This document shows positions 35,560 to 59,383 of a DNA stretch of 64,000 nt, in pieces. The translations under genes were made by a program, and so were the position numbers. The stretch lies in NCBI RefSeq assembly GCF_009914755.1, contig NC_060926.1; one strand, 5' to 3'. The notes beneath the pieces were generated by a model, which saw only the letters and a program-made list of their open reading frames with translations, had not been told where the DNA came from and did no database searches. How positions within the stretch are numbered: position 1 is the first letter of the stretch; each line of letters starts with the position of its first letter. The stretch is from the human T2T-CHM13v2.0 reference genome, Homo sapiens.

Positions 35560-35621
35560 TTTGGTGCAGCCGGGGTTTGGTACCGAGCGGAGAGGAGATG
35601 CACACGGCACTCGAGTGTGAG
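35560..35621 (+). other. SLC39A10: Non-coding first exon 1b (start approximate)
   Basis: Within the CpG island; donor GAG|gtaact at 35621/35622. The TSS cannot be determined from sequence. Confidence 0.8.
35599..35610 (+). promoter_or_regulatory. Metal response element (MTF-1 site) TGCACACGGCAC in exon 1b
   Basis: Perfect TGCRCNC core plus a GGC flank like high-affinity MREs. Zip10 is reported to be repressed by zinc via MTF-1 at an MRE just downstream of the TSS. Confidence 0.8.
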
Positions 35622-36021
35622 GTAACTATAAAACCCCGATTTGTTTACATTCCCTCCCCCAGAACCGGCCCCGTGCGCGGCGGAGACTGCGAGTCCCGGG
35701 ACGGCGTGGGGGTAGAAAGGGAGAACAGAACCGGGGAGTCGGGGCTGGTTCCCTCGGGGATGCGGGCGCTGGGGTTCCCGCAGCTGCTGCAGTCGGCGGC
35801 GGCCAGCCGAAGCAGAGCGCGTGGTGGGCAGAGTGTTGGGCGCCGCGGCTCCTCGTGTGCGGTCTGGGCTGCTGCGGGCCGCGGGATCGGGAGCCGGCGG
35901 CGTCCACTTCGCGTGCGGAGCCTCGCGCCCCCCTCACCTTCCTGTGGAGGTTGGCGGAGCCTCGCGGGCCGCGCCCGGGGTGGGGGAGTGACCGCTGGGC
36001 GGGTGGCGGCGGTTAGCGGGC

Positions 36022-36028
36022 TGCGCGC
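36022..36028 (+). promoter_or_regulatory. Second MRE core TGCGCGC
   Basis: Matches TGCRCNC, but it lies in GC-rich sequence where chance matches are frequent. Confidence 0.3.
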
Positions 36029-36602
36029 CGGCCGCGGATGGCGTCGCAGGCGCGGGCGGGCGAGGCTTTGGGGATCTGTAGGCAGGTCTTCGGGGGCTTG
36101 GCGACCAGCGCCCCGGTTTTTTCTTCTCCAGTCCTTCTCTCTGGTCTGTAATGGGGCGAGGGGACCCCGGGATGGAGCCTCGGCACCGCTGTTCCGGACC
36201 GAGGCTAACGGACGGCGGCGCCTCTGCTCCTACTAGTTTTCTCCCGGACCAACCGAAAAGCCGAGGCGGAGCGCGGGGGTGTGAAGATCTCGGCCTGCTG
36301 GGGGTCCCTGGAGCTGAGGGTGAGGGTGGGGCCGGGTCGGTGGGACAGGCCGGGTGGGCCGGAGGTGGCGCGGCCGCACGGCTTTGTTCCGGAAAGCCCT
36401 TAGGTGGAGAGCGATGTGGGGCGCGGCAGGGGGATCGCGTAGAGGAACCTTCGCGCACCGCCTCTCCGGGTCTGGGAATCTGCTGAACTCCTTGCCTCTC
36501 CTGGGGTCCCTCGAACGCCCCAGCTAAGAAGGGCGGGGGCCTTGCCAGGGCGCGAGCAACATGACGTTCAAGGTCTTCCTGTGGCTTCTGTAAAGAAATG
36601 TT

Positions 36603-36608
36603 CACGTG
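36603..36608. promoter_or_regulatory. E-box/HRE CACGTG at the 3' edge of the CpG island
   Basis: Motif match only. Confidence 0.3.
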
Positions 36609-57000: not shown

Positions 57001-58240
57001 CTCCCAAATCTTCAAGATCTGCGCTTTCCAGTACAGTAGCCAGTAGCCACACGTCTGTTGAGCACTTGAAATACAGTTAGACTGAATTAGGATGTGCTGT
57101 AAGTGTAAAATACATGACAGATTTCAAAGACATAGTATTAAAAAGAATGTAAAATATTTTAATAATTTTTATATTGATTAGATGTTGAAATTATAATATT
57201 TTGGATATAATGGGTTAAATAGAATAGTATGAAATTAGTTTCATCTATTCTGGAAAACTTCAGAATTACATAATTGGCTCTTATTATATTTCTAGATTCT
57301 TGAAGTATGCTTGTCCAATAGAACTTTCTATAATGATGGACATGTTCTGCGTCTACGTTGTCCAACATACTAGCCATTTGCTACATGTGGCTGTTGAGCA
57401 ATTAAAACATAGTCAGGGTGACTGAGAGGCTGCATTTTAAATTTAATTTTAGTTCATTTAAGTACCCGTATGTGACTAGTGGTGGCTACCATTGAATTGG
57501 ACAGTTCTGGACACTTTATCATTTTAGCATTTCTTGTTTCAGATTTATGTTCAGGAGCTATTAGCAATTGATTTTTGTAATGATGTGAGGTAAGGGTCAG
57601 ATTTTATTTATTATTTTCTTTTGTGTGGAAACCTAATTGACCAAGCACCAAGGAAAAGACCATCCTTTCCGGTTTTTAGCTTTTGTCTTCTGTTCCTTTA
57701 GTCTGTTTGTTATTGCACCAAATACCACAGCATCTTTGATAATTCATAGAGTAAATGCTTCAATTTTGTTCCTCAAGGAATACATCTTAGCCGTTCTTGG
57801 CCCTTTCTATTTCCACATCAATATTAAAAACAGTTAATCAGTTTTCACAAAATTCTGAGATTTTGACTGGGGTTGTATTGGATACATAGCTTATCCAGTC
57901 ATAACATGATATAGCCATCCGTTTATTTAGGTCTTTTATTTCTCTCAGTAATTTTCTGTCAATAATATTTCTCTCAATAATTTCTCTCTTTTCTATGTAA
58001 AGTTCTTGTATGTCTTTGGTTAGATACATTCCTAGCTATTTGCTACTGTTGTAAATGTTACTATTTTTGAGTTTTATTTTCTAATTATTGCTGATATATA
58101 GGAATATAATTTATTACTGTCCTTATATTCAGTAACTGTACTAAACTAACTTATTCTTAAAGATTCTTTAAGGCATGCTGCATAATTAATTCTACCATTT
58201 GTGAATAATGACAGTTTCACTTTTCTCTGGTTCTTAACAT
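54080..58240 (-). mobile_element. Degraded L1M fragments interspersed with Alus and MERs
   Basis: Antisense L1-like T-rich segments such as ttgctttccaaaatggctgtaccaat and gtggtatctaattgtgattttaattt. Confidence 0.5.
57020..57510. mobile_element. Adjacent MER33-like and MER3-like hAT elements
   Basis: agtagccagtagccacacg...ttgagcacttgaaat and gtccaatagaactttctataatgatgga motifs. Confidence 0.65.
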
Positions 58241-58364
58241 ATTTTATCATGAAGGAAATGGAGTAAAACTTTTTTTAGTGGATTGGCAACTTCCAGAGAA
58301 TTAGATTGTTTTGAATGTGTCTAGGTAGAAACTAATACTTGTCTCTCTCTTTAAATCTCTTTAG

Positions 58365-58375
58365 GAAAAATAGAA
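58365..58375 (+). other. SLC39A10: 5'UTR portion of exon 2 (GAAAAATAGAA)
   Basis: Lies between the polypyrimidine/AG acceptor and the ATG at 58376. Confidence 0.9.
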
Positions 58376-59383
58376 ATGAAGGTACATATGCACACAAAAT
58401 TTTGCCTCATTTGTTTGCTGACATTTATTTTTCATCATTGCAACCATTGCCATGAAGAACATGACCATGGCCCTGAAGCGCTTCACAGACAGCATCGTGG
58501 AATGACAGAATTGGAGCCAAGCAAATTTTCAAAGCAAGCTGCTGAAAATGAAAAAAAATACTATATTGAAAAACTTTTTGAGCGTTATGGTGAAAATGGA
58601 AGATTATCCTTTTTTGGTTTGGAGAAACTTTTAACAAACTTGGGCCTTGGAGAGAGAAAAGTAGTTGAGATTAATCATGAGGATCTTGGCCACGATCATG
58701 TTTCTCATTTAGATATTTTGGCAGTTCAAGAGGGAAAGCATTTTCACTCACATAACCACCAGCATTCCCATAATCATTTAAATTCAGAAAATCAAACTGT
58801 GACCAGTGTATCCACAAAAAGAAACCATAAATGTGATCCAGAGAAAGAGACAGTTGAAGTGTCTGTAAAATCTGATGATAAACATATGCATGACCATAAT
58901 CACCGCCTACGTCATCACCATCGTTTGCATCATCATCTTGATCATAACAACACTCACCATTTTCATAATGATTCCATTACTCCCAGTGAGCGTGGGGAGC
59001 CTAGCAATGAACCTTCAACAGAGACCAATAAAACCCAGGAACAATCTGATGTTAAACTACCGAAAGGAAAGAGGAAGAAAAAAGGGAGGAAAAGTAATGA
59101 AAATTCTGAGGTTATTACACCAGGTTTTCCCCCTAACCATGATCAGGGTGAACAGTATGAGCATAATCGGGTCCACAAACCTGATCGTGTACATAACCCA
59201 GGTCATTCTCATGTACATCTTCCAGAACGTAATGGTCATGATCCTGGTCGTGGACACCAAGATCTTGATCCTGATAATGAAGGTGAACTTCGACATACTA
59301 GAAAGAGAGAAGCACCACATGTTAAAAATAATGCAATAATTTCTTTGAGAAAAGATCTAAATGAAGATGACCATCATCATGAA
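58376..59383 (+). CDS. SLC39A10: SLC39A10/ZIP10 coding exon 2 (aa 1-336): signal peptide and His-rich extracellular N-terminus
   Basis: ORF MKVHMHTKFCLICLLTFIFHHCNHC... recognised as ZIP10, with about 50 His in 336 aa. Acceptor tctctttag|G at 58364/58365, ATG at 58376, phase-0 donor GAA|gtaagt at 59383/59384. Confidence 0.97.

What the first reader, a model, noticed from the sequence alone, without database searches (positions are those of the whole stretch)
35598..58378. MRE overlaps the start codon of a junction-spanning uORF (MHTALECEEK*) that stops 2 nt before the ZIP10 ATG
Seen: the ATG at 35598-35600 shares its TG with the MRE (A-TGCACACGGCAC). After the exon 1b to exon 2 splice it reads ATG CAC ACG GCA CTC GAG TGT GAG|GAA AAA TAG (stop 58371-58373), then AA, then the main ATG (58376). 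Both ATGs have G at -3 and a non-G at +4. Established: re-initiation is very inefficient over a 2-nt gap, so ZIP10 translation from this isoform should rely on leaky scanning. Inference: the same nucleotides may do double duty, as the MTF-1 repression site in DNA and as a translational brake in mRNA. The 10-aa peptide contains His, Cys and three Glu, so zinc-dependent ribosome stalling is a speculative possibility.
Basis: partly seen in the sequence, partly recalled or inferred. Interest (0 to 1): 0.78.

Follow-up and report, generated by a model that had tools for sequence, protein, structure and literature searches.

The report
Short uORF starting inside ZIP10's MRE
One leader of the human zinc importer gene SLC39A10 carries a ten-codon upstream reading frame whose ATG overlaps the zinc-sensing MTF-1 site and which stops two bases before the real start; it is real and shared with mouse, but it is probably an ordinary partial brake on translation, not a zinc sensor.

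Summary
ATG 35598-35600 shares its TG with TGCACAC (35599-35605). After the annotated splice 35621|58365 the frame runs ten codons to TAG 58371-58373, then AA, then the SLC39A10 ATG at 58376.

Three published mouse oligos show the same A-TGCACAC in mouse DNA and mRNA. MTF-1 repression through this exonic MRE is shown in mouse.

Nothing about the arrangement exceeds chance. In one search, 71% of 5000 shuffles of the 67-nt leader hold an ATG. Genome-wide, 33 of 143 copies of the same 12-mer are preceded by A. The leader has no unusual structure (z 0.24).

My best reading is a real AUG uORF that acts as a constitutive, partial brake bypassed by leaky scanning. The ATG-MRE overlap is a 1-in-4 coincidence held in place by constraint on the MRE. 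Zinc-dependent stalling has no support.

One practical point: the published MRE mutant also destroys the uATG.

Ribo-seq, CAGE and multi-species alignments could not be consulted. No paper searched discusses this uORF.

The parts
35566..35621 (+). First exon ('1b') of NM_020342.3, non-coding, 56 nt, inside a CpG island
   Evidence: Hub gene table. The gt donor follows at 35622. Region 35200-36400 has GC 0.67 and CpG o/e 1.02.
35599..35610 (+). MRE: core TGCACAC (35599-35605) plus 3' flank GGCAC. It is the human counterpart of the mouse Zip10 +17 MRE.
   Evidence: Core match. The mouse mutagenic oligo is identical to human at 31 of 34 positions, and the 3 differences are the engineered ones. 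MTF-1 ChIP and reporter work in mouse.
35598..35600 (+). uATG. It lies at mRNA position 33-35 of NM_020342.3, with -3 G and +4 C.
   Evidence: A mouse cDNA qPCR primer is identical to human 35596-35613 at 18 of 18 positions.
35598..35621 (+). uORF codons 1-8
58365..58373 (+). uORF codons 9-10 and the stop TAG (58371-58373) at the start of exon 2
58374..58375 (+). 2-nt spacer AA
58376..58378 (+). Annotated SLC39A10 start codon, with -3 G and +4 A
   Evidence: hub table.
58377..58379 (+). Second stop (TGA) in the uORF frame, one codon after TAG, overlapping the main ATG
   Evidence: Read.
58388..58395 (+). In-frame Met5 ATG of the coding sequence, again fused to a TGCACAC core. It is a possible back-up start and a second MRE-like core.

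Best explanation
This is a real AUG-initiated upstream ORF of ten codons in the MRE-bearing leader of SLC39A10.

Shown:
- The sequence and the frame.
- Its presence in the RefSeq transcript marked 'selected'.
- The same start codon and flanks in mouse mRNA.
- The fact that the same bases are the MTF-1 site that represses mouse Zip10 transcription.

Inferred:
- Some scanning 43S complexes start at the uAUG, which has a purine at -3. They translate ten codons and terminate at UAG with the main AUG only 2 nt away.
- These ribosomes are mostly lost to ZIP10 synthesis. The 40S has no time to reload the ternary complex.
- While the 80S sits on the stop, its footprint covers the main AUG.
- ZIP10 from this isoform is therefore made mainly by ribosomes that leak past the uAUG. 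The uORF is a constitutive, partial brake, and possibly an NMD trigger, because its stop lies upstream of the later exon junctions.
- The ATG-MRE overlap is most simply a 1-in-4 accident (an A in front of TGC) that has been kept because the MRE and its flanks are constrained as DNA.
- Transcripts from the annotated downstream starts (35658-35667, 36006) lack both the MRE and this uORF in their RNA.
For: - Sequence and frame.
- The uATG is 33 nt from the annotated 5' end.
- Mouse mRNA holds the same 18 nt across the uATG, 18 of 18. The mouse genomic flanks are identical apart from the 3 engineered bases, 31 of 34.
- Mouse 5'RACE places the MRE inside the transcript at +17.
- The leader is unstructured, so scanning should be unimpeded: MFE -13.0 against shuffles at -13.6 +/- 2.5, z 0.24.
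- General behaviour of such uORFs, from preprint 10.1101/2025.07.28.667205 (passages):
  - Shortening the gap of the CUL2 uORF to 9 nt made it repressive.
  - The refractory distance after a stop is estimated at 10-100 nt.
  - uORFs under 17 aa were more repressive in proteome data.
  - Acidic uORF peptides were hyper-repressive.
- Review PMC10275272 (passages): in Kozak 1987 the favoured distance was 79-140 nt.
- Base rates for a coincidental overlap.
Against: - No ribosome-profiling, initiation-profiling or CAGE data could be consulted.
- In mouse the uAUG is only about 16 nt from the cap. Cap-proximal uORFs initiate poorly, so the brake may be weak there.
- One uATG in 67 nt is chance level, so its presence alone says nothing about function.
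- Conservation to mouse is fully confounded by the MRE.
- Conservation of the exon-2 stop could not be tested (one search found no paper with that string).
- How much of human ZIP10 mRNA carries this leader, rather than the other annotated first exons, is unknown.
Confidence: 0.5

Rival explanations
1. Hitch-hiker. The ATG exists only because an A precedes the MRE core. It is conserved for DNA reasons, and most ribosomes skip it because of the short cap distance and a merely adequate context. Its effect on ZIP10 output is negligible.
For: - 33 of 143 genomic copies of the 12-mer have A in front.
- 71% of shuffled leaders have an ATG.
- The mouse MRE is at +17 of the start.
- Cap-proximal uORFs were found to be weak.
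- Fish zip10 MREs lie elsewhere.
Against: - In the human RefSeq transcript the uAUG is 33 nt from the 5' end and has a purine at -3.
- The uORF is in the configuration class reported as most repressive: short, next to the main ORF, with a tiny gap.
Confidence: 0.33
2. Zinc-sensing uORF. The nascent ten-residue peptide (His, Cys, three Glu) or the terminating ribosome stalls when zinc is high. The stall occludes the main AUG, so the same bases repress ZIP10 both as DNA (via MTF-1) and as RNA.
For: This is indirect only.
- The gene is a zinc importer repressed by zinc.
- A ribosome on the stop would cover the main AUG (geometry, inference).
- The start-to-stop distance of 30 nt is about one ribosome width, so a queued scanning complex would sit near the uAUG (inference).
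- Acidic uORF peptides can be hyper-repressive.
Against: - No call gave any evidence of zinc dependence.
- No paper links uORFs with MTF-1 or zinc control of this gene.
- Zinc control of Zip10 is accounted for at transcription: hnRNA, actinomycin D and Pol II ChIP.
- Peptide conservation cannot be told apart from MRE conservation.
- Three scattered Glu residues are far from the homopolymers tested.
Confidence: 0.04
3. Minor-isoform feature. In most human tissues ZIP10 mRNA starts at the other annotated first exons (35298, 35658-35667, 36006, or beyond the window), so this uORF governs little of the protein.
For: - The hub table lists 10 transcripts with at least five other first or alternative exons.
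- Four annotated starts cluster at 35658-35667, downstream of the uATG.
- Their leaders behave quite differently.
Against: - The hub table marks NM_020342.3 as the selected transcript.
- Mouse liver and brain gave a single 5'RACE start, with the MRE at +17.
- A working mouse qPCR assay primes on the uATG-MRE sequence.
Confidence: 0.2

Closest known systems
Mouse Zip10 (Slc39a10) exonic MRE at +17: MTF-1 roadblock repression. Sources are Lichten et al. 2011, PMC3124522, passages and section 23 read; and Wimmer et al. 2005, known here only as cited there because it is not held.
   Same: The sequence is the same. The mouse oligos match human at 31 of 34 positions (the 3 differences were engineered) and 18 of 18. 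The site lies in the untranslated first exon, downstream of the start site.
   Different: The published work treats it only as a DNA element, and the ATG it contains is not mentioned in the passages read. Binding of human MTF-1 at this site was not examined here.
Ordinary short AUG uORFs that end close to the main start: the 'recharger' class in preprint 10.1101/2025.07.28.667205. Also Kozak 1987, as cited in review PMC10275272.
   Same: It is under 17 codons, lies next to the main ORF and has a gap far below the 10-100 nt refractory distance. Repression is therefore expected, with leaky scanning as the route to the main ORF.
   Different: Its start codon is embedded in a validated transcription-factor site. 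A second uORF-frame stop overlaps the main ATG.
Ligand-sensing regulatory uORFs: polyamine-responsive AMD1 uORF, fungal arginine attenuator peptide, boron-responsive AUG-stop of plant NIP5;1, magnesium-sensitive uORF of PRL phosphatases. All are recalled and none was checked in a call.
   Same: It is a uORF in the leader of a gene for homeostasis of the very nutrient that might be sensed, and termination occurs right at the main start.
   Different: There is no evidence of ligand dependence. No peptide-level conservation has been shown, and no recognised stalling motif is present.
[quoted passage not shown]
   Same: A zinc-responsive activator acts as a repressor of a zinc importer because of where its site lies.
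   Different: It is a purely transcriptional case, with no overlap with a start codon described.

Membership tests
AUG-initiated upstream ORF (uORF) | An ATG in the annotated 5' leader, upstream of the main ATG | tested here: met
   ATG at 35598-35600 is mRNA position 33 of a 67-nt leader.
AUG-initiated upstream ORF (uORF) | An in-frame stop before (or overlapping) the main coding sequence in the spliced mRNA | tested here: met
   TAG at 58371-58373, 2 nt before the main ATG, after the annotated 35621|58365 splice.
AUG-initiated upstream ORF (uORF) | The ATG is inside the mature mRNA (transcription starts upstream of it) | tested here: inconclusive
   The RefSeq exon starts at 35566 (hub table). 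Mouse 5'RACE puts the MRE at +17, and a mouse cDNA primer spans the ATG. Human CAGE was not available, and other annotated starts lie downstream.
AUG-initiated upstream ORF (uORF) | Ribosomes initiate on it (Ribo-seq or initiation profiling) | not testable with these tools
   Supplementary catalogues were closed. No paper text covers it.
AUG-initiated upstream ORF (uORF) | Removal raises main-ORF output | not testable with these tools
   This needs a reporter experiment. The published MRE mutant removes the ATG too, but in a DNA reporter that MTF-1 also acts on.
Metal response element (MTF-1 site) | Core TGCRCNC | tested here: met
   TGCACAC at 35599-35605 on the + strand. It is one of only 2 of the window's 56 core matches that lie in 35000-36500.
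Metal response element (MTF-1 site) | GC-rich 3' flank of the extended element (consensus recalled, not from a call) | tested here: inconclusive
   The flank is GGCAC. I judged it only against a recalled consensus.
Metal response element (MTF-1 site) | MTF-1 occupancy and zinc-dependent effect on the gene | not testable with these tools
   This is shown for the identical mouse site by ChIP, siRNA and reporter. The human site was not assayed in any paper read.
Ligand-sensing (stalling) regulatory uORF | Peptide sequence conserved beyond what the DNA constraint explains | not testable with these tools
   No vertebrate genomes other than the human one are held. The mouse oligos cover only codons 1-6, which are the MRE itself.
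Ligand-sensing (stalling) regulatory uORF | Ligand-dependent ribosome arrest on the uORF | not testable with these tools
   No data are available. Searches for uORF with MTF-1 and zinc found 1 paper, unrelated by title and abstract.

The most novel reading that the evidence does not exclude
The eight bases A-TGCACAC form a two-level zinc switch. As DNA they hold MTF-1 as a roadblock. As RNA they start a ten-codon uORF that is exactly one ribosome-width long. Its terminating ribosome covers the ZIP10 AUG and parks the next scanning complex on the uAUG. Any zinc- or stress-dependent slowing of termination on the acidic, His/Cys-bearing peptide would then shut off translation in a self-reinforcing way. 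Choosing the downstream start sites (35658-35667) would escape both controls at once.
Probability: 0.05. Interest if true: 0.75.

Novelty: new member of a known kind. Interest (0 to 1): 0.3.

Why it matters
ZIP10 is the zinc importer that cells switch on when zinc is scarce. It has been linked to erythroid and muscle zinc supply (abstracts and passages of PMC12933087 and PMC12672441).

If the uORF is active, three things follow:
- ZIP10 protein from the MRE-bearing isoform is capped at the translational level, independently of MTF-1.
- 5'UTR variants at 35598-35600 or 58371-58379 become candidates for altered ZIP10 dosage.
- The classical MRE mutant used to prove MTF-1 repression changes two things at once (T35599-equivalent to G destroys the ATG as well). 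Basal reporter levels from such mutants need re-reading.

If it is inactive, this is one more of the uORFs predicted in 59.3% of human RefSeq transcripts.

Tried and rejected
- **Peptide in print.** A search for the ten-residue string found 0 papers.
- **uORF in print.** SLC39A10 + uORF gave 1 paper, a review on Alzheimer's disease by its title, not opened. ZIP10 + uORF gave 1 paper on rice. uORF + MTF-1 + zinc gave 1 paper on ATF4. SLC39A10 + Ribo-seq gave 2 papers, unrelated by title and abstract. None was opened. All ten paper searches are used.
- **Conservation of the exon-2 stop.** A 16-nt string across the stop and main ATG is in 0 papers, so mouse conservation of TAG remains unknown.
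- **Ribo-seq and uORF catalogues.** Those supplements may well list, or fail to list, this uORF.
- **Papers not held.** Wimmer 2005, Zheng 2008 on zebrafish and Johnstone 2016.
- **Earlier findings of this scan.** Not open.
- **Retrocopy as a fossil of the spliced leader.** Exon 2 matches only itself in the genome, 1 match.
- **Structure.** The leader folds no better than shuffles (z 0.24). A small CACAC/GUGUG stem right after the uAUG appears in the MFE fold but carries no statistical weight.
- **Enrichment of the 12-mer genome-wide.** 143 against 112 for the reversed control, so no meaningful excess.
- **The excess of MRE cores in the window.** 56 against 25.2 +/- 5.3 in 100 shuffles. It comes from one variant, TGCACTC (36 of 56), which often lies in stretches masked as repeats, and it is not a zinc-related signal.
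Full report
**The observation**

- ATG lies at 35598-35600. Seven more codons run to 35621, and a gt donor follows.
- Exon 2 begins at 58365 after a pyrimidine tract and ag. It reads GAA AAA TAG (stop at 58371-58373), then AA, then the annotated SLC39A10 ATG at 58376.
- Joining the annotated exons in a script gives a 67-nt leader with one uATG at mRNA position 33, a ten-codon uORF and a 2-nt gap.
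- Both ATGs have G at -3. The +4 base is C for the uATG and A for the main ATG.
- The MRE core TGCRCNC matches at 35599-35605, so its T and G are the T and G of the uATG.
- In the uORF frame a second stop, TGA at 58377-58379, follows one codon later and overlaps the main ATG.

**Is it more than chance?** No.
- 71% of 5000 dinucleotide-preserving shuffles of the leader contain at least one ATG, mean 0.87.
- The 12-mer TGCACACGGCAC occurs 143 times in the genome, against 112 for the reversed control. It is preceded by A in 33 of those 143, which is the 1-in-4 base rate.
- Only one of the three frames that can enter exon 2 meets a stop before the main ATG. One frame overlaps the coding sequence out of frame, and one is in frame with it.
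- The window's excess of MRE cores is 56 against 25.2 +/- 5.3 in 100 shuffles. It is carried by one variant, TGCACTC (36 of 56), often inside masked repeats. Only 2 of the 56 lie in 35000-36500.
- The leader is not unusually structured: MFE -13.0 against -13.6 +/- 2.5, z 0.24.

**What the site is**

Lichten et al. 2011 (PMC3124522; passages and section 23 read) report the following for mouse.
- There is a single 5'RACE start in liver and brain.
- One MRE lies 17 bp downstream of that start, in the untranslated first exon.
- MTF-1 ChIP signal appears after zinc.
- MTF-1 siRNA weakens the zinc response of the reporter.
- Pol II ChIP is consistent with a block to elongation.
- A -2 kb/+1 kb luciferase reporter loses zinc responsiveness when the MRE is mutated.

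Their mutagenic oligo matches human 35580-35613 at 31 of 34 positions. The three differences are the engineered ones, at the equivalents of 35599, 35602 and 35603.

A mouse Slc39a10 qPCR forward primer from an unrelated paper (PMC7523961, methods table) is identical to human 35596-35613 at 18 of 18 positions. It works on cDNA with a reverse primer in exon 2 that matches at 18 of 20.

The A-TGCACAC arrangement is therefore present in mouse DNA and in mouse mRNA. Conservation of the exon-2 stop could not be checked (0 papers hold that string, and no other vertebrate genome is held).

In fish the repressive MREs lie elsewhere. In yellow catfish the site is at -2017/-2004 (PMC9321221, abstract and passages). 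In zebrafish it is an intronic cluster (as cited; the paper itself is not held). MTF-1 repression of zip10 therefore does not need an ATG overlap.

**A practical consequence**

The published MRE mutation turns the ATG into AGG. It removes the uATG together with the MRE.

In the unspliced human context, which is what a +1 kb promoter fragment resembles, this ATG opens a 212-codon frame through the CpG island. In such DNA reporters the ATG could matter for luciferase output.

The transcriptional conclusion of that paper rests on more than the mutant (hnRNA, actinomycin D, ChIP). The mutant's basal level, though, is confounded.

**How it most likely works**

Shown: the sequence, the frame, its presence in the RefSeq transcript marked 'selected', and its presence in mouse mRNA.

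Inferred from general knowledge of scanning:
- A fraction of 43S complexes start at the uAUG (purine at -3, 33 nt from the annotated cap site).
- After ten codons the 80S terminates with the main AUG 2 nt downstream, inside its own footprint.
- A post-termination 40S has no distance in which to regain the ternary complex.

The passages read support this rule.
- Kozak 1987 favoured 79-140 nt (review PMC10275272).
- Preprint 10.1101/2025.07.28.667205 reports that shortening a gap to 9 nt made an inert uORF repressive.
- It estimates the refractory stretch at 10-100 nt.
- It reports that uORFs under 17 aa were more repressive, and that cap-proximal uORFs were weak.

ZIP10 from this leader should therefore be made mainly by leaky scanning, and the uORF is a constitutive partial brake.

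Ribosomes that pass both AUGs meet an in-frame ATG (Met5, 58388) 12 nt further on, before any out-of-frame ATG (next at 58452). That ATG could serve as a back-up start.

Because the uORF stop lies upstream of the later exon junctions, NMD is a possible added effect (inference).

I put this reading at 0.5. The main uncertainty is how often the uAUG is used. In mouse it is only about 16 nt from the cap.

**Rivals**
- (a) A neutral hitch-hiker of the MRE: 0.33.
No call gave any support, and zinc control is already explained at transcription. The geometry still allows it: the start-to-stop distance of 30 nt is about one ribosome width, and a terminating ribosome covers the main AUG.
- (c) The leader is a minor isoform in human tissues: 0.2. 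This is not exclusive of the others.

The other annotated first exons behave differently when joined to exon 2. These joins are my own.
- 35298-35350 gives a 33-codon uORF that overlaps the main ATG out of frame.
- 35658/35662-35949 gives an ATG at 35760 in frame with the main ATG and no stop, a 67-residue extension.
- 35667-35711 gives no uATG.
- 36006-36319 gives three uATGs.

For starts at 35658-35667 the MRE lies upstream of the start site, so the roadblock logic would not apply to them (inference).

**Comparison with what is known, and novelty**

This is a member of the commonest class of leader element. uORFs are predicted in 59.3% of human RefSeq transcripts. It sits on a site whose DNA function is already published for mouse.

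None of the five searches found a paper that discusses a uORF in SLC39A10/ZIP10. The ZIP10 papers opened describe the MRE only as a DNA element. uORF databases and Ribo-seq supplements, which may list it, could not be seen.

I file it as a new member of a known kind. Interest is modest. The testable point, and the caveat on the MRE mutant, are useful to zinc biologists. Nothing here is surprising to a translation specialist.

Noticed in passing
window 58388-58395: The same eight bases, A-TGCACAC, recur 12 nt after the main ATG, where the ATG is the in-frame Met5 of ZIP10. This places a second MRE core inside exon 2. It also means the uORF peptide and residues 5-7 of ZIP10 begin with the same three residues. 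TGCACAC occurs only 8 times among the 56 core matches in the 64-kb window.
   Followed up: partly
window 35760-35762 with exon 35658/35662/35663-35949: When this alternative first exon is joined to exon 2 (my own join), an ATG at 35760 is in frame with the main ATG and no stop intervenes. It would add 67 residues in front of the signal peptide.
   Followed up: partly
window 35340-35342 with exon 35298-35350: This alternative first exon carries a uATG. After joining to exon 2 it opens a 33-codon uORF that overlaps the main ATG out of frame. That configuration is expected to be strongly inhibitory.
   Followed up: no
window 35599, 35602, 35603 (mouse equivalents): The MRE mutation used in the 2011 mouse Zip10 reporter study also converts the uATG to AGG. 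The mutant therefore removes two elements at once.
   Followed up: yes
window 58377-58379: A fail-safe stop. TGA in the uORF frame lies one codon after TAG and overlaps the main ATG, so loss of TAG would still leave a uORF ending on the start codon.
   Followed up: no
G000:C8:757897-758502: Ten perfect copies of the 12-mer TGCACACGGCAC lie on the + strand, nine of them at spacings of 49-50 bp. This is a tandem repeat near a chromosome end made of MTF-1-type sites.
   Followed up: no
window 35598-36236 (+) and 35934-36623 (-): Unspliced, the uATG opens a 212-codon frame, and the opposite strand holds a 229-codon frame. Both lie in the CpG island (GC 0.67) and are most likely chance products of stop-poor sequence.
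   Followed up: no
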